From a virus, in IMG/VR virus record IMGVR_UViG_3300045988_049202, positions 1 to 18,921 of that record: a DNA stretch of 18,921 bases. One strand, given 5' to 3'. Below the pieces are notes generated by a model. The model made no database searches. It worked only from the letters and a program-made list of their open reading frames with translations, and had not been told where the DNA came from. How positions within the stretch are numbered: position 1 is the stretch's first letter; each line of letters begins with the position of its first letter. Shown here piece after piece: positions 1 through 18,921 of the stretch. A program made the translations under genes and the position numbers.

Positions 1-279
1 GAGGGGAGGGCCCCTGCCAGTTAGCTTTTTTCCACTACTGTTCTGTTGTGTGTTTCATCTCTGTTCTCTGTTCTGTGTTTTTCATTGCTGTTCTTGTTCT
101 GTCGTTTGTTATCATCTCTGTTGTTTACTATTTTATTCGCCTTCTTTCCGTTGTCAATTTTGCTTGCTGTTTTGTCTCATGATTTTAGTGTGTGTTTTGT
201 TTATAGTTTGAGTGGGCTGTTTTTTGTCGTTTTTTTCTGTTGTTGGGTGTGTCTTGTTTTTTTTTGTGTGGTAGATTGA

Positions 280-430
280 GGGTATCAACAAAAAACTAGA
301 GGATAGGAGAGTGAAGAAATGTAGTTGTGTTGTTAGTGTATTAAGTGCAATGGGTGCAATAAAAGCGTGTATGCCGCATTGTTTTGATGAGTGTGTTGAA
401 GCCCGGTAGGTCGATGGCCTGCCGGGTTTG
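280..430 (+). ncRNA. Candidate ITR-encoded small RNA, left copy (function unknown; pRNA is one possibility)
   Basis: About 150 nt of normal base composition follows the T+G-only tract. Upstream lies a TGn-extended -10-like element (TG 269-270, TAGATT 272-277). The stretch ends in the hairpin 402-410/418-426 plus a T-rich run. It has no credible ORF. It contains the direct repeat GTGCAAT at 345-351 and 354-360. Confidence 0.2.
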
Positions 431-449
431 TTGTTTGTGTTGTGTTTTG
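399..449 (+). terminator. Intrinsic-terminator-like hairpin plus T-rich tail inside left ITR
   Basis: The stem is CCCGGTAGG (402-410) with CCTGCCGGG (418-426), 9 bp including one G-U pair. The loop is TCGATGG. The hairpin is followed by TTTGTTGTTTGTGTTGTGTTTTG (427-449). The opposite strand has no U-tract, so it is directional (inward). Confidence 0.45.
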
Positions 450-463
450 TGGTGTGGTATGAT
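435..463 (+). promoter_or_regulatory. Left-end early promoter (sigma-70 type) at the ITR boundary
   Basis: -35 TTGTGT (435-440), 17-nt spacer, TG (455-456), -10 TATGAT (458-463). It lies about 30 nt upstream of the start of the 493-738 gene. Confidence 0.5.
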
Positions 464-492: not shown

Positions 493-738
493 ATGGTGGT
501 TGAGATGTGGCATTATTTTACCGTTGTTGACACGTATACGGGGTTGGATCGTGGTTTTCGGTGGCGTGAGGCGGTTTGCGGTTACTGTGGGGTTGATTAT
601 CAATTTCAATTGTATGATGGGATGTGTGGCCGCTGGATTCCGGTGAGGTCTTTTTTTGACGTGGATGATGGTTTTGAGTATTGTCGTGATTTTGATTTTA
701 AAGAATTTTATAGGACTTATGCGGAACGTTTCGTGTGA
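493..738 (+). CDS. Hypothetical small early protein (81 aa, four Cys including CGYC)
   Basis: This is the only credible plus-strand ORF. SD-like GAGGA/GAAGGAAGG lies upstream of ATG 493. The same SD and first codons MVV(E/D)M recur at the right-end gene 18173-18430. The gene is followed by the hairpin terminator 748-780. Confidence 0.6.
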   Translation: MVVEMWHYFTVVDTYTGLDRGFRWREAVCGYCGVDYQFQLYDGMCGRWIPVRSFFDVDDGFEYCRDFDFKEFYRTYAERFV

Positions 739-747
739 ATAGAAAAA

Positions 748-780
748 GAAGCCCTCTAGGTTATATGCCTAGGGGGCTTC
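748..780. terminator. Hairpin terminator between convergent genes (strong for minus strand)
   Basis: GAAGCCCTCTAGG (748-760) pairs with CCTAGGGGGCTTC (768-780), 13 bp with one mismatch; the loop is TTATATG. On the minus strand it is followed by UUUUUCU (complement of 741-747), ending the long operon after the endolysin. The plus-strand side has only a weak T-tract. Confidence 0.75.
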
Positions 781-789
781 TTGCTAATG

Positions 790-1602
790 TTAGTCGTTGA
801 GTCGTTTGGCGAGTTCTGTGGCTACTTGCTGGCCGAGGCTGGTTTTGAGACTGTCGGCTAGCTTGCCTACCTGTTCGTCGGTCAATCCCTTGCCGCTGTC
901 GGGTTTGAGGCCGTTGACGGCGAGATAGGTGCTTTCGGTGTTGTTCAGGATGGCGGGCAGGTAGTCGAATGGGTATTGTTCTGAGATGGGGCCGAGGCGT
1001 GCGGCGAGGGCGTCGATTCGGTGGGTTAGGTCTTGTAATGCGTACTCGACTGTGACGGTGTTCCCGTACCAGTTGATAGGGTCTGTTTTTACTGGCATGT
1101 CTGCTCCTCGTGTGAGTAGTTGGTTTGCTTTGTTGATGACGTAGTTTACGTCAAGTCCGTTGGGTGCGAGGTCGGGACATCCGGCGTGATTGGTTCCGGG
1201 CACTTCACGGTGTAGCCAGATGTTTCCGTTGAGTCCGTCGTGCCATAGGTGGTTCCATCCGTATCGTCGTGCGATGTCGGCGCAGAGTGCGGCGGAAGCG
1301 TCCATACATGCTTGTGTGCATGGGATTCCGTCCATTCCGCCTTCGTGTTCGATGCTGATGGTGCTGTTGTTGCTGGCGTAGTTGGCGTCTGACCATGATC
1401 CGTTACTTTCGTCAACGTATTGGTGGATAGTGCCGTCTCCTCCTACCCCGTAGTGCGCTGATGCTGTGCTTCCGGGGGATCGGAAAAAGTTGTCTGCGCT
1501 GGTCAAGTAGCCTACCATGATGTGTAGGGTGATGTGGTCTACGTGGTATCCGTCGCGCCCGTTGTAGTGATTGGGGGAACCTATCCATGTGATTCCATCC
1601 AT
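790..1602 (-). CDS. Endolysin, N-acetylmuramoyl-L-alanine amidase (Amidase_2/PGRP-type) with uncharacterised C-terminal domain
   Basis: 270 aa. The N-terminal ~160 aa carry Amidase_2-like strings: HITLHIMVG, SAHYGVGGDGTIHQYV, NSTISIEHEG, HREVPGTNHAGCPD (His/His/Cys zinc pattern of the T7-lysozyme family). SD GGAAGGAAG precedes ATG 1602. The gene is immediately downstream of the holin. Confidence 0.85.
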   Translation of the reverse strand: MDGITWIGSPNHYNGRDGYHVDHITLHIMVGYLTSADNFFRSPGSTASAHYGVGGDGTIHQYVDESNGSWSDANYASNNSTISIEHEGGMDGIPCTQACMDASAALCADIARRYGWNHLWHDGLNGNIWLHREVPGTNHAGCPDLAPNGLDVNYVINKANQLLTRGADMPVKTDPINWYGNTVTVEYALQDLTHRIDALAARLGPISEQYPFDYLPAILNNTESTYLAVNGLKPDSGKGLTDEQVGKLADSLKTSLGQQVATELAKRLND

Positions 1603-4382: not shown

Positions 4383-5858
4383 TCACCACGCTCGGGTGAG
4401 TTGCGCTCCGGCCAATCCGTTAGGGGTTCCCGAGGGTTTGGTCGTGAACCCCTGCCATCCAAAATGGCCGTCGGTATCAATGTGGAACAGTGTCGTGTTG
4501 TTTGCGCCGTTAGTGATGGCCGCCACCCATGCCTGACCCTGATTCGTCCCGTCCGACGCATTCCACGCCCACATTGGCAGTCCGCTCACGTTCGTGTAGT
4601 TCGCCGGCGTGACGCCTGATGCTACGTTAAGTCCATATGTAATGGTTCCCGCGCTTGCGTCCACGGTGAGAACGAACTCCGCAGGGTTTTGTTGAGGACG
4701 CCATACGAACACTTCATGCCGTCCGTTATATGTGCCGAGCATGTATCGCATGATATAGTTTACGATGACGTTGGTTCCCAGTTCGTTGGGGTGGATATTC
4801 TCGCCATCGAATGCGTTTTCGCGCCCGAGATTCCATGTCCATGCCCACGGAATGGATTCCACGCCGGTTAGGGTTGCCGCCTCATCAATGCTTGCGGCGT
4901 TATAACGCCAATATCCCGACTCCGGTTTTTTATCCCATAACAACGGTATAGCGATGATTCGCGCATTGGGATATTCGTTGCTTACGGACTGAAACAGTTC
5001 TTGCGCGGCTGTTTTGATTGCCCCCGTATATCCGTCGATGCTGTTGCGAGACCCTCCGATAACCACCAAAGACACATCGTCATGGTTATAGGTCTTATCC
5101 GCCTTGGCTGTGTTGAACTCGCTCATATATGTGGTGTTCGGAGCGGTGTATCCCGCTCCGCTCTTTGCGTAATTATGCAAAGTCCACCCCAGTTTTTGAG
5201 CAAGCATATACGCCCAGCTTCTAGTGTTCGTGGTGTCGGCGTAGGAATCACCAAAAGTCACGATGATATTTGAGCCGTGAGACACGAACGGCTGATTTAC
5301 GCTGAGAATGCGAGAGTTGTTCTGGATGGTATTATATAGCATTGTCGCGTTGGAGGTGGAATCGGCGTGAAGCGCGTTCAAATTCGCTTCAACGGCCGTT
5401 ATGTCGGTTGTGTTGGTATGAACCGATGAGGAGAGGCCGTTTAAATTGTTCTCGATTCCCGTGGTCTTGCTCTGCAATGCGGCAATATCCCTATTGGTGT
5501 TGGTTTTGAAACCGCTGAGGTCGGTTTTCACCGCATTCAGTTCGGTGGCCGTGGTGTCAATCTTGGTTTTAAGCTGGCCTGCCGCCGTATTGTCGGTTGC
5601 GCCGAGCGCGTCCAATCGGCCCACGGCGTCATTGGCTGTGGACTGTGCGCCGTTTGCCGTCTCGCTTGCCTTGCTTGCCGAAGCGGTCGCGTTGTTCGCC
5701 GCCGCCGTGGCAGTGGTGATGTTGGTAGCGTTGGCGTACATCTGATTATCGATTTTCGTCATCGCGTCGGAGAAATCACCACGCCACGACGGGCGGTCGT
5801 TCGGATTGTCGCCAAACGTCGGCAGATTATAGTGTCCGGTATGCTGTGTTGTAGACAT
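4383..5858 (-). CDS. Tail fibre/appendage protein with coiled-coil stalk, SGNH (GDSL) esterase domain and C-terminal beta-rich domain
   Basis: 491 aa. The N-terminal motif HTGHYNLPTFGDNPNDRPSWRGDFSDAMTKID is shared with the 5874-6290 product. A T/N/A-rich heptad-like stalk follows. SGNH blocks are FGDSY (I), AKSGAGY (II), IGGSRNS (III) and DGENIHPN (V). SD AAGGAAAG precedes ATG 5858. Confidence 0.75.
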   Translation of the reverse strand: MSTTQHTGHYNLPTFGDNPNDRPSWRGDFSDAMTKIDNQMYANATNITTATAAANNATASASKASETANGAQSTANDAVGRLDALGATDNTAAGQLKTKIDTTATELNAVKTDLSGFKTNTNRDIAALQSKTTGIENNLNGLSSSVHTNTTDITAVEANLNALHADSTSNATMLYNTIQNNSRILSVNQPFVSHGSNIIVTFGDSYADTTNTRSWAYMLAQKLGWTLHNYAKSGAGYTAPNTTYMSEFNTAKADKTYNHDDVSLVVIGGSRNSIDGYTGAIKTAAQELFQSVSNEYPNARIIAIPLLWDKKPESGYWRYNAASIDEAATLTGVESIPWAWTWNLGRENAFDGENIHPNELGTNVIVNYIMRYMLGTYNGRHEVFVWRPQQNPAEFVLTVDASAGTITYGLNVASGVTPANYTNVSGLPMWAWNASDGTNQGQAWVAAITNGANNTTLFHIDTDGHFGWQGFTTKPSGTPNGLAGAQLTRAW

Positions 5859-13112: not shown

Positions 13113-13283
13113 AGTAAGTGGCATGGCGGCAATCACGCCGTCATGCCGGTTTGCTAGGCTGTGCGGGTTCCCTCGCCGTCGCTGGGCGTTGGCTACGCAC
13201 GTCTACATCCGACCGAATCGCCTTACCGACTTGCCTTACGGTCGGGCCATCGAATCGACTTGGGACGCACACCCCGCTACCGG
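13113..13283 (-). ncRNA. Candidate structured RNA (pRNA-like position) ending in a terminator-like hairpin
   Basis: The gap between the polymerase stop (13287) and the scaffold SD has no ORF. Long-range complementarity links 13266-13283 (CGCACACCCCGCTACCGG) with 13146-13165 (CCGGTTTGCTAGGCTGTGCG). An internal 7-bp inverted repeat pairs 13209-13215 with 13239-13245. An 11-bp hairpin pairs 13120-13130 with 13137-13147 and is followed on the minus strand by ACUUACUUU. Confidence 0.3.
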
Positions 13284-13286
13284 ATA

Positions 13287-14747
13287 TTATAGCATGAAAA
13301 CATGGCCGTCATCATTGAGATGATGTGACCCCGGCAGGAACTCATCATAGGGGATGGGGGCGGCACGGTGTACGCCACTCAGCCGCATGACGGTATCGCC
13401 GCCCGTTTCCACGCCGCAATATTTGCGATTGCCGAGGATGCGGAGCCTCTCATAGGTGTGGTCGTTTTTCCACGCGCCTAGTTTCCGGTCATCCGTTTCG
13501 ATTCCCATAGGCGTATCCGGCCCTTCCAGTATCATGCCGTCGGTATCGGCGTAGATCACGCGTTCGGCGTTATCGGTCATGGCGCGGGATAGTATTCGCC
13601 TTCCGTAGGCGTTGACATATGCGGCGGTCGGCAACCATGCCAGACTGTTGGCCGACTCGGGTTTGTCCACGGTAAAATCCACACCCCCGTCTACGGACGG
13701 TTTCGGATGCAACATGGGACGGTACAGCGAGGCACCGAACTTCCCTACCAGCGAGTTCAGCAACAGTTTTGCCATCTGCCTGCGTTCTCCGGTTTCTGTT
13801 TGTTTCGCGTGAAACCATTTGTCCACGTATGTGTAGTAGAGTCCGTGTGATTTGCGGAATTTCCAGCCGCCCACGTGCTCCCACACGTGGATGTCGTAGT
13901 TTTCGGTCAGCGTTTCCCAATCCACATCCGTGACCGGCATGGTGACAACGCCCAGCGTACTGTCCAGACGTTCACCCTCATACCCCCATACGGGTAGGAT
14001 ATTGGTGAGTGTCGCCGTTTTTCCCGTTTTCAATCGCGCGTCAAACGCAATGACATCGATATGGAGCGGATAGTCATTGTCATGTTGATACTTCCCGTCG
14101 TACCATATTGGTGAGCCTACCGGCATGGGCGCATCGCGCATGATGCTCGGGTAGAGGCTATTCACGTCCCAGCTTCGGCAATCCCGGTATTCTCCCGGCT
14201 TGCTGTATACTATCGCCCCATAGTAGGCGGGGCGCATACGGTGATAATCATCCCTATCCAATGGTGGAAAATGGCGCTTGAATCCGGCGTAATCCCCATC
14301 GATATAGTCGGTCATCGCCATTGAAGCTATGGTCGTGCCCTTGAGGTTCAGGGCGGTGCATTCCTGCGCGATATTCCACGTGGTCTCCAAGTCATCCGCG
14401 CCGCCGAATGTTTCACGTGAAACATTCAAACCATCGTCGCGCGTGATATTGCGCACGTCCAAAAAATCCACGGTGATACCGCCCATACGCACACGAAAAC
14501 TGTAAAAGTGGCCTCGAATGTTGAACGTGCCCCACACGCCGTCCTTGGCTGGATTCGATTGCAATGGGAGTCGTTTCAGCAATTCGGCGGCTATGGGCTT
14601 GATGTCCTGCCATCCGTGGGCGCACCATACGCGCGTGTGATAATCGAGCATGGTGAGACGGATAACGGCGTTTGCCGTCAATGGTTCCATGCCGTCATCC
14701 GTCAATAGTGTTGCGCCGTCTGTTGCCGCCGTTCGACGCTCTTTCAT
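13287..14747 (-). CDS. Protein-primed family-B DNA polymerase (phi29 gp2 family)
   Basis: 486 aa. Motif A is DVNSLYPS, motif B is KLLLNSLVGKFG, motif C is YADTDG, and KxY is RKY. DGKYQHDNDYPLHIDVI matches phi29 EGKYVWDEDYPLHIQHI. Segments corresponding to TPR1 and TPR2 are present. SD AAGGA precedes ATG 14747. Confidence 0.95.
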   Translation of the reverse strand: MKERRTAATDGATLLTDDGMEPLTANAVIRLTMLDYHTRVWCAHGWQDIKPIAAELLKRLPLQSNPAKDGVWGTFNIRGHFYSFRVRMGGITVDFLDVRNITRDDGLNVSRETFGGADDLETTWNIAQECTALNLKGTTIASMAMTDYIDGDYAGFKRHFPPLDRDDYHRMRPAYYGAIVYSKPGEYRDCRSWDVNSLYPSIMRDAPMPVGSPIWYDGKYQHDNDYPLHIDVIAFDARLKTGKTATLTNILPVWGYEGERLDSTLGVVTMPVTDVDWETLTENYDIHVWEHVGGWKFRKSHGLYYTYVDKWFHAKQTETGERRQMAKLLLNSLVGKFGASLYRPMLHPKPSVDGGVDFTVDKPESANSLAWLPTAAYVNAYGRRILSRAMTDNAERVIYADTDGMILEGPDTPMGIETDDRKLGAWKNDHTYERLRILGNRKYCGVETGGDTVMRLSGVHRAAPIPYDEFLPGSHHLNDDGHVFML

Positions 14748-18458: not shown

Positions 18459-18487
18459 ATAATACCACACCACAAAACACAACACAA
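18459..18487 (-). promoter_or_regulatory. Right-end early promoter (sigma-70 type) at the ITR boundary
   Basis: Mirror of the left promoter: -35 TTGTGT (18482-18487), 17-nt spacer, TGn, -10 TATTAT (18459-18464). ITR identity ends inside the -10 hexamer, yet both versions stay close to consensus. It heads the minus-strand early gene string. Confidence 0.5.
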
Positions 18488-18523
18488 ACAACAAACCCGG
18501 CAGGCCATCGACCTACCGGGCTT
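18473..18523 (-). terminator. Mirror copy of the ITR hairpin/T-tract in right ITR
   Basis: Exact reverse complement of 399-449. Confidence 0.45.
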
Positions 18524-18642
18524 CAACACACTCATCAAAACAATGCGGCATACACGCTTTTATTGCACCCATTGCACTTAATACACTAACAACACAACTA
18601 CATTTCTTCACTCTCCTATCCTCTAGTTTTTTGTTGATACCC
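18492..18642 (-). ncRNA. Candidate ITR-encoded small RNA, right copy
   Basis: Exact mirror of 280-430 inside the right ITR, oriented inward on the minus strand. Confidence 0.2.
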
Positions 18643-18921
18643 TCAATCTACCACACAAAAAAAAACAAGACACACCCAACAACAGAAAAAAACGACAAAA
18701 AACAGCCCACTCAAACTATAAACAAAACACACACTAAAATCATGAGACAAAACAGCAAGCAAAATTGACAACGGAAAGAAGGCGAATAAAATAGTAAACA
18801 ACAGAGATGATAACAAACGACAGAACAAGAACAGCAATGAAAAACACAGAACAGAGAACAGAGATGAAACACACAACAGAACAGTAGTGGAAAAAAGCTA
18901 ACTGGCAGGGGCCCTCCCCTC

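What the first reader, a model, noticed from the sequence alone, without database searches (positions are those of the whole stretch)
269..449. Self-contained transcription unit without an ORF inside each ITR: duplicated small RNA candidate
At about 280 the composition switches from T+G-only to normal. Just upstream lies an extended -10-like element (TG 269-270, TAGATT 272-277). About 150 nt downstream lies an inward-directed intrinsic-terminator-like hairpin (402-426) with a long U-rich tail. No ORF with an SD fits between them; there is only a 19-codon ATG ORF at 350-409 and an ATG-TAG pair at 319-324. The interval contains the direct repeat GTGCAAT-GG-GTGCAAT (345-360) and the near-palindrome ATGCCGCAT (371-379). 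Because it lies in the ITR it is present twice per genome. The predicted size is in the range of phi29-family packaging RNAs, and this phage has a close gp16 homologue. In phi29, gp16 assembles on a pRNA ring, and the phi29 pRNA gene is also next to a genome end. Alternatives are a regulatory sRNA, or a terminator that simply insulates the early promoter at 435-463.
Basis: partly seen in the sequence, partly recalled or inferred. Interest (0 to 1): 0.7.

Follow-up and report, generated by a model that had tools for sequence, protein, structure and literature searches.

The report
ORF-less early cassette in phage ITR

Summary
The described features are real. Window 269-277 is an extended -10 (TGgTAGATT) that belongs to the same promoter block as the phage's early promoters. 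Window 399-429 is a strong inward intrinsic-terminator hairpin (-24.5 kcal/mol, z -6.7). The unit lies in the 460-bp exact ITR, so it is present twice.

The packaging-RNA reading fails. Rfam finds no pRNA match. The RNA body folds no better than shuffles (z -0.2) and shows no covariation. About 75 close relatives with a 86-98% identical gp16 lack the unit. Yet it is shared at 80-100% identity with a second phage lineage whose gp16, connector and capsid are only 25-34% identical.

It is a moron-like mosaic cassette. It has an early promoter, an early-gene 5'UTR whose start codon is closed at once by TAG, about 53 nt of unique sequence with a nearly invariant core, and the family's shared terminator block. 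The 19-codon ORF has no SD and only non-synonymous changes.

Best reading: an accessory early small RNA (confidence ~0.45). Rivals: a transcribed fossil cassette, or a micro-peptide gene.

A much better pRNA-like candidate lies elsewhere: a covarying ~160-nt structured RNA at 13114-13279 (-), present in all 80 relatives examined.

The parts
1..460 (.). Left inverted terminal repeat (exact copy; the mirror is 18462-18921). Similarity continues to 477.
246..283 (+). Promoter block P1: T/G-rich upstream part, extended -10 TG (269-270) and TAGATT (272-277). The family 'TATCA' box starts at 283.
   Evidence: The motif TG.TA...T+3-8+TATC[AG] is found only at P1 and P2 at both ends. P1 aligns with the single early promoter of relatives. 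TG-n-TA-n-AT-T is conserved in all carriers.
284..435 (+). Predicted early transcript of about 150 nt. The TSS is inferred ~7 nt after the -10; the 3' end is inferred a few nt after the terminator stem.
   Evidence: Inference. There is no expression data.
299..324 (+). Early-gene 5'UTR remnant: SD-like GAGGATAGGAGA plus ATG (319-321) closed immediately by TAG (322-324).
   Evidence: Predicted SD pairing is -11.6 kcal/mol, second best in the genome. ATGTAG is invariant in 8 variants. The same UTR+ATG heads a real 61-aa ORF in L111.
325..377 (+). Sequence unique to the cassette; no homologue was found outside the carriers.
   Evidence: nhmmer, tblastx and Smith-Waterman tests. There were no hits in 596 Gb of prokaryote genomes or in isolate phages.
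345..385 (+). Nearly invariant core. It includes the GTGCAAT-GG-GTGCAAT repeat and ATGCCGCAT.
   Evidence: 3 of 41 columns are variable against 25 of 74 in the flanking body, Fisher p=0.0013.
350..409 (+). 19-codon ATG ORF (MGAIKACMPHCFDECVEAR); probably not translated.
   Evidence: SD energy is -1.8, weaker than any of the 24 gene starts examined. There are 0 synonymous and at least 7 non-synonymous changes. L092 has a frameshift. In L084/L091 the start codon is overlapped by the -10. Its 3' half is post-stop 3' flank in L143.
378..398 (+). Upstream part of the shared terminator block (ATTGTTT..GATGAA).
   Evidence: The same sequence follows the stop codon of an ordinary ORF in L143.
399..441 (+). 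Intrinsic terminator: 14-bp stem (399-429) plus a U-rich tail.
   Evidence: The variable stem positions stay paired through G-U wobbles that work only on the + strand RNA. The same hairpin follows an 85-aa ORF in L009/L012.
455..463 (+). Early promoter P2 (TGgTATGAT), which drives the 81-aa gene at 493-738.
18487..18676 (-). Mirror copy of P1, the predicted transcript and the terminator in the right ITR. P1 -10 is at 18645-18650 and the terminator stem at 18493-18523.

Best explanation
The interval is an accessory, horizontally exchanged early transcription cassette, a moron-like unit that holds no conventional gene.

Anatomy (shown):
1. A copy of the family's early promoter (extended -10 at 269-277).
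2. The 5'UTR, Shine-Dalgarno and ATG of a canonical early gene, closed at once by TAG (319-324).
3. About 53 nt of cassette-specific sequence with a nearly invariant core (345-385).
4. The family's shared intrinsic-terminator block (378-441), which is followed by the next early promoter.

Because the unit lies in the ITR, both genome ends carry it.

Mechanism (inferred): host RNA polymerase transcribes it as soon as DNA enters the cell. That gives a weakly structured RNA of about 150 nt that ends in a stable terminator hairpin and starts with a strong ribosome-binding start-stop site. Its conserved, single-stranded core acts in trans as a base-pairing or decoy RNA, probably on a host target. 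It would therefore be an optional host-takeover or counter-defence function, not a core phage function. It is not a packaging RNA.
For: Promoter:
- The motif is shared only with the true early promoters.
- It is homologous to the single early promoter of relatives.
- TG and TA..T are kept in all ten variants.

Terminator:
- Stem energy -24.5 kcal/mol, z -6.7.
- Stem changes are wobble-compatible on the + strand only.

Accessory and mobile:
- Absent from ~75 lineage-A relatives and from ~76 of 80 lineage-B genomes.
- It is the only DNA that the window shares with lineage B. One carrier (L086) also shares the neighbouring 81-aa gene. The core proteins of the two lineages are 25-34% identical.
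- It sits next to at least 5 different downstream genes and two different ITR types.
- It lies in both ITR copies in both lineages.

Mosaic build:
- The 5' part is the 5' end of a real ORF cassette in L111.
- The 3' part is the 3' flank of a real ORF in L143, L009 and L012.

Not coding:
- The GTG start is not conserved.
- ORF19 has the worst SD of the 24 starts examined, 0 synonymous against at least 7 non-synonymous changes, and one frameshift variant.
- No protein relatives among 1.84 billion representatives.
- No gene caller ever called it.

Constraint at nucleotide level: 3/41 core columns are variable against 25/74 in the flanks, p=0.0013.
Against: - There are no expression data.
- No target was found. 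The best complementarity to the phage's own transcripts is 9-13 nt at E>1. Duplex energies with the late leader and the early UTRs are not significant. Host genomes could not be searched for short seeds.
- There is no covariation and no excess structure, so nothing marks it as a functional RNA except the core's conservation.
- That conservation rests on only ~9 closely related variants. Part of it could reflect recent spread, plus the fact that the flanking blocks can recombine with diverged alleles while the unique core cannot.
- Natural deletion variants exist that lose either the 5' half (L084/L091) or the core plus terminator (L160). The cassette is rare, about 4% of related genomes.
Confidence: 0.45

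Rival explanations
1. Fossil cassette. An early protein-coding cassette lost almost all of its ORF. What remains is promoter, 5'UTR, ATG, a stop, scraps of sequence and the 3' terminator block. It is still transcribed, but the RNA has no function and the unit persists only because it hitch-hikes between recombining promoter blocks.
For: - The 5' part equals the 5' end of a real ORF cassette (L111). The 3' part equals the 3' flank of real ORFs (L143, L009, L012).
- The start codon is followed directly by a stop.
- Further deletion variants, L084/L091 and L160, share an AT|GGGTG junction.
- The cassette is rare in both lineages.
- The RNA shows no structure, no covariation and no target.
Against: - The 345-385 core is significantly less variable than the rest of the body.
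- The unit kept its integrity while its neighbours on both sides were exchanged several times and while it crossed between two distant lineages.
- No donor ORF could be found for the unique ~53 nt: nhmmer, tblastx and Smith-Waterman gave p 0.1-0.9, and phmmer against 1.84 billion proteins found nothing.
Confidence: 0.3
2. Micro-protein gene. The unit encodes a 19-20-aa Cys/His-rich peptide, MGAIKAC[M/I]PHC[F/L][D/N/S]EC.. (32 aa from GTG in this genome). Translation would perhaps occur by re-initiation after the upstream start-stop site.
For: - ATG and stop are kept in 8 of 9 variants.
- C7, P9, H10, C11, E14 and C15 are invariant.
- M/I and F/L changes are conservative.
- The 3-nt insertion in L068 keeps the reading frame.
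- A strong ribosome-binding site lies 25 nt upstream.
Against: - The ORF has no SD (-1.8 kcal/mol, the weakest of the 24 starts examined).
- All substitutions are non-synonymous, while codons 1-11 are invariant even at third positions.
- L092 has a 1-nt deletion.
- In L084/L091 the -10 overlaps the ATG, so the promoter's own transcript cannot contain it.
- The C-terminal half is untranslated 3' flank in L143, where Cys15 reads Tyr.
- The 3-nt insertion also lengthens the terminator stem.
- No homologues exist.
Confidence: 0.12
3. DNA-level element. The repeated GTGCAAT and the ATGCCGCAT palindrome are binding sites for a phage or host protein that controls the neighbouring early promoters or terminal replication.
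For: Conservation is at the nucleotide level and independent of reading frame. The region contains a direct repeat and a palindrome.
Against: - Relatives run the same promoters and the same type of ITR without it.
- The L084 variant keeps only one GTGCAAT copy.
- No other copy of the motifs lies near other promoters in the genome.
- The element always travels with its own promoter and terminator.
Confidence: 0.05
4. Packaging RNA (pRNA). The transcript assembles on the connector and docks the gp16 ATPase, as in phi29.
For: The size is about 150 nt, the position is near a genome end, and gp16 and connector family proteins are present.
Against: - No Rfam pRNA match.
- Body fold z is -0.2 and +0.1, with different MFE structures in different variants.
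- No compensatory pairs.
- Absent from most phages with a near-identical motor, yet shared with phages whose motor proteins are 25-34% identical.
- Natural variants delete half of it.
- A universal, covarying structured RNA exists elsewhere in the genome.
Confidence: 0.02

Closest known systems
phi29 prohead/packaging RNA (pRNA, Rfam Phage_pRNA)
   Same: A small phage RNA gene without an ORF, near a genome end, in a phage with a phi29-type connector and gp16 ATPase. Its size is similar: 174 nt, encoded at 147-320 bp in phi29 (PMC5066667).
   Different: - pRNA is highly structured: a three-way junction, an A helix and interlocking CE/D loops.
- pRNA is essential, is universal in its clade, and is reported only in phi29 and related Bacillus phages (PMC11476376).
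- The unit here is unstructured apart from its terminator, optional, horizontally mobile and not matched by the model.
- It points inward, whereas the phi29 pRNA gene is transcribed towards the end (my own knowledge).
Phage morons (Juhala/Hendrix; 'The moron comes of age', PMC3594210)
   Same: An autonomous unit with its own promoter and terminator. It is present in some genomes and absent at the same place in close relatives, and it is spread by horizontal exchange.
   Different: Morons normally carry a protein gene and are mostly described in temperate phages, where they benefit the lysogen. This unit has no credible ORF and sits in the ITR of a small protein-primed, apparently lytic podophage.
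Prophage-encoded anti-sRNAs at moron sites (AsxR/AgvB, PMC4104026)
   Same: Short non-coding RNAs carried at accessory insertion sites of phages, with a conserved part and a variable part, acting in trans on host RNAs.
   Different: Those are 51-60 nt, Hfq-dependent and found in lambdoid prophages of E. coli, with demonstrated targets. Here no target is known, and to my knowledge the presumed Bifidobacterium host lacks Hfq.
Candidate ncRNAs and single-feature transcription units of virulent phages found by ONT-cappable-seq (PMC10914365)
   Same: Promoter-to-terminator units in lytic phages that contain no annotated feature. About 25% of transcription units in that study were of this kind.
   Different: Those were detected as transcripts. 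This unit is predicted from sequence and comparative genomics only.
Start-stop mini-ORFs (ATG directly followed by a stop behind a strong SD)
   Same: SD plus ATG-TAG is invariant in all variants that keep the 5' half.
   Different: Known examples, which I recall rather than tested here, are regulatory elements in bacterial 5'UTRs. Here the element is demonstrably the start of a canonical early-gene cassette (L111) that has lost its ORF.

Membership tests
phi29-type pRNA | Match to the Rfam pRNA covariance model | tested here: not met
   No pRNA hit in the whole window at E<=10, nor in 1-520 searched alone with laxer filters.
phi29-type pRNA | Stable conserved fold (A helix closed by the 5' and 3' ends, three-way junction) supported by covariation | tested here: not met
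   Body 284-398 has z -0.20. The L085 body has z +0.10 with a different MFE fold. RNAalifold finds 0 compensatory pairs, and the shuffles equal the observed values.
phi29-type pRNA | Present in every phage that uses the same connector/gp16 motor | tested here: not met
   Absent from ~75 of 80 lineage-A loci with gp16 86-98% identical, including at least 24 with complete termini.
phi29-type pRNA | Diverges together with the connector and ATPase it binds | tested here: not met
   80-84% identity overall, with a nearly invariant core, between lineages whose gp16, connector and capsid proteins are 33%, 25% and 30% identical.
phi29-type pRNA | Bound to proheads and required for DNA packaging | not testable with these tools
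   Needs RNA extraction from proheads and RNase-sensitive in vitro packaging.
Phage moron | Own promoter | tested here: met
   Extended -10 homologous to the family's early promoters. Support is by sequence only; no TSS has been mapped.
Phage moron | Own terminator | tested here: met
Phage moron | Present or absent at the same site among close relatives, with evidence of horizontal transfer | tested here: met
Phage moron | Carries a protein-coding gene | tested here: not met
   No conserved ORF with an SD. No homologues.
Trans-acting base-pairing sRNA | Discrete stable transcript | not testable with these tools
   No transcriptome is available.
Trans-acting base-pairing sRNA | Conserved single-stranded seed region | tested here: inconclusive
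   The core 345-385 is conserved, but there are few, closely related variants and its pairing state is not fixed.
Trans-acting base-pairing sRNA | Complementary target | tested here: inconclusive
   None in the phage genome. Exact 20-23-nt probes found nothing in 596 Gb of genomes. Short seeds in host genomes could not be searched.
Small-protein gene | Conserved ORF with a ribosome-binding site and purifying selection | tested here: not met
   ORF19 has no SD and 0 synonymous changes against at least 7 non-synonymous. There are frameshift and promoter-overlap variants.

The most novel reading that the evidence does not exclude
The cassette is a 'non-coding moron': a mobile, promoter-and-terminator-bounded early RNA gene. 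Distantly related phi29-like Bifidobacterium phages trade it through recombination at their conserved early-promoter blocks. Its invariant core acts on a host factor, for example as an RNA decoy or anti-defence RNA, immediately after DNA entry, and it is expressed from both genome ends.
Probability: 0.3. Interest if true: 0.65.

Novelty: new variant of a known kind. Interest (0 to 1): 0.4.

Why it matters
If the RNA is functional, it would be the first accessory regulatory RNA described in the phi29-like, protein-primed podophages, where the only known RNA gene is pRNA. It would also show that moron-type exchange operates on non-coding early units inside terminal repeats of gut Bifidobacterium phages.

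The work also removes a false pRNA candidate. It points to a far better one: a universal, covarying ~160-nt RNA between the polymerase gene and the late genes. That bears on an open question, namely whether packaging RNAs exist outside Bacillus phages.

Tried and rejected
- **Rfam**, whole window and 1-520 at E<=10: only chance hits, driven by terminators.
- **RNAalifold and pair counting** on 7 full-length variants: a plausible fold, but 0 compensatory pairs and shuffles as good as observed.
- **Antisense targets in the phage genome** by blastn-short: best 9-13 nt, E>1. A genome-wide RNAduplex scan timed out. Duplexes with the late leader and early UTRs were not significant.
- **Search for more or diverged copies**: three pattern scans of IMG/VR, one of metagenomes and two of GTDB genomes; nhmmer over 176 related loci; distant blastn against isolate phages. 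Only ~10 closely similar carriers turned up, and nothing in bacterial genomes.
- **Idea that the body is a decayed copy of the L111/L100 early ORF** (a resemblance seen by eye): Smith-Waterman against shuffles gave p 0.1-0.9, so rejected. tblastx against all loci found nothing at E<1.
- **Idea of recoded TAG codons** in the ATG319 frame: rejected, because a 1-nt indel in half of the variants breaks that frame.
- **Protein searches**: the 32-aa ORF was too short for the search for homologous proteins. phmmer against 1.84 billion representatives gave 0 hits. The exact product is on record nowhere.
- **Leader-peptide attenuator idea** (stop codon inside the terminator stem): set aside, because the same terminator follows ordinary genes and the ORF is not robust.
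- **Covariance model of the late-leader RNA** searched in BD811P2 and lineage B: no hit. Lineage-B intergenic regions showed no obvious analogue.

Full report
**What the window is.** The 18,921-bp window is a complete linear genome of a phi29-like podophage.
- It has terminal inverted repeats, exact for 460 nt and 99% identical over 477 nt.
- It encodes a protein-primed type-B DNA polymerase, a phi29-type capsid protein, connector and tail knob, and a gp16-family packaging ATPase.
- The only isolate with nucleotide similarity is Bifidobacterium phage BD811P2.
- More than 100 related uncultivated genomes exist in IMG/VR and in gut metagenomes.
- Nearly all genes are read from the right end on the - strand. 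The left end drives one small gene (493-738) that converges on a terminator at 749-780.

**Checking the observation.**
- The -10-like site is better than a chance match. TGgTAGATT, followed 6 nt later by TATCA, shares its composite motif with only one other element in the genome: the early promoter at 455-473 and its mirror.
- In alignments of terminal repeats from relatives, this site is homologous to their single early promoter.
- The hairpin at 399-429 is a 14-bp stem of -24.5 kcal/mol (z -6.7).
- Its variable positions stay paired through G-U wobbles that exist only in the + strand RNA.
- Two points need correcting. The upstream composition is T-rich with 14% C and 8% A rather than 'T+G only'. 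In addition, a GTG ORF of 32 codons (311-409) with GAGGA 7 nt upstream does exist in this genome.

**Comparative picture.** I fetched 80 loci through the gp16 ATPase, which is 86-98% identical.
- Only three of these loci carry the interval.
- In the rest, including at least 24 that reach the physical terminus, the T-rich repeat runs straight into the early promoter and the first early gene.
- Pattern scans of IMG/VR and of metagenome assemblies brought the total to about ten distinct carriers.
- Half of the carriers belong to a second lineage of ~16-kb phi29-like phages. These share no other alignable DNA with the window. The one exception is L086, which also shares the neighbouring 81-aa gene.
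- In that second lineage gp16, capsid and connector are only 33%, 30% and 25% identical to the window's.
- The interval is rare in the second lineage too: 2 of 80 near-complete genomes, plus two further carriers outside that set.
- In both lineages it sits in both terminal repeats.
- It is followed by at least five different early genes.
- It is absent from 596 Gb of bacterial and archaeal genomes and from isolate phages at the stringency available.
- The interval is therefore a discrete, optional, horizontally exchanged unit.

**How the unit is built.** Relatives show that it is a mosaic.
- In L111 the same promoter, 5'UTR, Shine-Dalgarno and ATG (…CTAGAGAATAGGAAAAAATAAAATG) start an ordinary 61-codon early gene. 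In the unit that ATG is followed directly by TAG.
- In L143 the sequence ATTGTTTAAATGAGTATGATGAAGCCCGG plus the hairpin lies after the stop codon of an ordinary gene. In L009 and L012 the hairpin and the next promoter follow an 85-codon gene.
- Only ~53 nt (325-377) are specific to the unit. No donor for them was found by nhmmer, tblastx, Smith-Waterman against shuffles, or phmmer against 1.84 billion proteins.
- Two natural deletion forms exist. L084/L091 lack the 5' half, so the -10 is fused to the core. L160 lacks the core and terminator. Both have junctions at AT|GGGTG.

**Coding or not.**
- The 32-codon GTG ORF is specific to the window: the start reads GCG in L008, no start exists in L013, and there is a frameshift in L068 and others.
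- The 19-codon ATG ORF is intact in 8 of 9 variants and keeps its Cys and His residues.
- Against translation of that ORF: it has the weakest predicted SD pairing of the 24 starts examined (-1.8 against a median of -7.4 kcal/mol).
- All seven or more substitutions are non-synonymous, while the first eleven codons are invariant at all three positions.
- L092 has a 1-nt deletion.
- In L084/L091 the -10 hexamer overlaps the start codon.
- Half of the ORF is untranslated flank in L143.
- By contrast, ATG319-TAG has the second-strongest SD pairing in the genome (-11.6) and is invariant.
- I therefore regard a micro-peptide as possible but unlikely (0.12).

**RNA properties.**
- Outside the terminator, the predicted ~150-nt RNA folds no better than shuffled sequence (z -0.20; L085 z +0.10 with a different fold).
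- The z of -3.7 for the whole transcript comes entirely from the terminator.
- RNAalifold proposes a fold in which four variable positions stay paired by wobble. There are no compensatory pairs, and shuffled controls do equally well.
- The one positive signal is nucleotide-level conservation of the core 345-385: 3 of 41 columns are variable against 25 of 74 in the rest of the body, p = 0.0013.
- That signal comes with a caveat. The flanking blocks can recombine with diverged alleles from other cassettes, whereas the unique core cannot.
- No extended complementarity to the phage's own transcripts was found.

**Verdict on the packaging-RNA idea.** Every testable defining feature fails.
- There is no model match.
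- There is no stable or covarying fold.
- The unit is not universal among phages with a near-identical motor.
- It is nearly identical between phages whose motor proteins are very different.
- According to a 2024 review, pRNA is known only from phi29 and related Bacillus phages (PMC11476376).

**Best explanation.** The unit is a moron-like early cassette without a gene. It should be transcribed from both ends immediately after DNA entry, giving an RNA with a 5' ribosome-binding start-stop site, a conserved unstructured core and a terminator hairpin.
- I commit to a trans-acting accessory RNA (decoy or base-pairing, probably with a host target) at 0.45.
- The main rival is that it is a transcribed fossil of an early gene that lost its ORF (0.30).
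- The anatomy (promoter, terminator, mosaic origin, mobility, not a pRNA) is shown. Transcription and any function are inferred.

**Side finding.** While asking where a pRNA could be, I found that the 190-nt gap between the polymerase stop and the first late ORF holds a consensus extended -10, TGCTATAAT (13294-13286, - strand), followed by a GC-rich RNA at 13279-13114.
- It is present in all 80 relatives fetched through the polymerase (86-99% identity).
- On 72 distinct sequences, 99.6% of cells are paired.
- There are 7 pairs with compensatory changes. The alignment has 116 double-change cells against 46.6 ± 6.7 in shuffles (0 of 500 shuffles reach the observed value).
- The covariation score is 0.118, against at most 0.064 for slid structures.
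- The fold is a long helix closed by the 5' and 3' parts, a three-way junction with two hairpins, a short linker and a separate 12-bp hairpin with loop UGAU. This layout recalls domains I and II of phi29 pRNA (PMC5066667).
- In BD811P2 the same position holds TGCTATAAT, a Y-shaped RNA and a hairpin with the same GUGAUU loop followed by a U-tract. A second promoter then drives the late genes, so there the RNA is a free-standing gene.
- In BD811P2 a 7-nt internal loop (ACCACCA) is complementary to the loop of the second hairpin (GUGGU). In the window's lineage the corresponding loops keep GGC and GCC invariant while their neighbours vary.
- This was read by eye and is post hoc, but it is the kind of loop-loop match that defines pRNA self-association.
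- Rfam does not match the RNA. A covariance model built from it finds nothing in BD811P2 or in lineage B.
- It deserves its own study.

Noticed in passing
window 13114-13294 (- strand): A consensus extended -10 (TGCTATAAT) overlaps the polymerase stop codon. It is followed by a ~160-nt GC-rich structured RNA upstream of the first late ORF. The RNA is present in all 80 lineage-A relatives fetched and shows significant covariation: 7 compensatory pairs, and 116 double-change cells against 47 in shuffles. Its fold is a closing helix, a three-way junction with two hairpins, a linker and a 12-bp hairpin. This recalls the pRNA domain I/II layout. Rfam gives no match.
   Followed up: partly
L001 (BD811P2) 4715-4945: The same position in BD811P2 holds TGCTATAAT, a Y-shaped RNA, and a terminator hairpin GGCCCUCC-GUGAUU-GGAGGGCC plus GUUUUAUUU. 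The loop is the same as in the window's hairpin although the stems are unrelated. A second promoter (TGATATAAT) then drives the late genes, so this is a free-standing small RNA gene. The internal loop ACCACCA is complementary to the hairpin loop GUGGU. In the window's lineage the equivalent loops keep GGC/GCC invariant.
   Followed up: partly
window 1-5 and 18917-18921: Several relatives begin AAAAGGAGGGG..., whereas the window begins GAGGGGAGGG. The assembly probably lacks about 5 terminal nucleotides at each end, namely the A-run expected for protein-primed sliding-back.
   Followed up: no
window 130-157 (- strand; mirror in the right ITR): An outward-pointing sigma-70-like promoter, TTGACA-16-TAAAAT (11 of 12 matches), lies inside the T-rich repeat. 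It would give a ~125-nt A/C-rich run-off transcript towards the genome end. Both hexamers are only partly conserved in relatives.
   Followed up: partly
window 21-280: The outer ITR is strongly strand-asymmetric (T 57%, A 8% on the 5'-ending strand) and is built of CTGTTCT/TGTTGT-like words. The pattern is conserved across lineage A, whereas lineage B has a short, unrelated terminal sequence.
   Followed up: no
L009/L012 (revcomp 180-600), L143, L111, L160: The early regions of these phages are built from interchangeable cassettes (promoter block, 5'UTR, small ORF, shared terminator block). Recombination appears to occur in the conserved promoter and terminator blocks.
   Followed up: partly
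L084/L091 and L160: Two independent deletion variants of the cassette both have junctions of the form AT|GGGTG. GGGTG also precedes the -10 of the lineage-B early promoters. This may be a recombination hot spot or microhomology.
   Followed up: no
window 493-738 and L086: The 81-aa early protein (with a CxxC motif and no Pfam family on record) is shared at 82% amino-acid identity between the two otherwise unalignable lineages. It is therefore another mobile early cassette.
   Followed up: no
window 749-780: A terminator hairpin sits between the convergent genes 493-738 (+) and 790-1602 (-). It is the sole cause of the weak Rfam hits to His_leader, trpB and sau-5971.
   Followed up: no
L099 900-973: Lineage-B phages carry a tRNA-Ile (anticodon TAT) in their early region. 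The window has no tRNA.
   Followed up: partly
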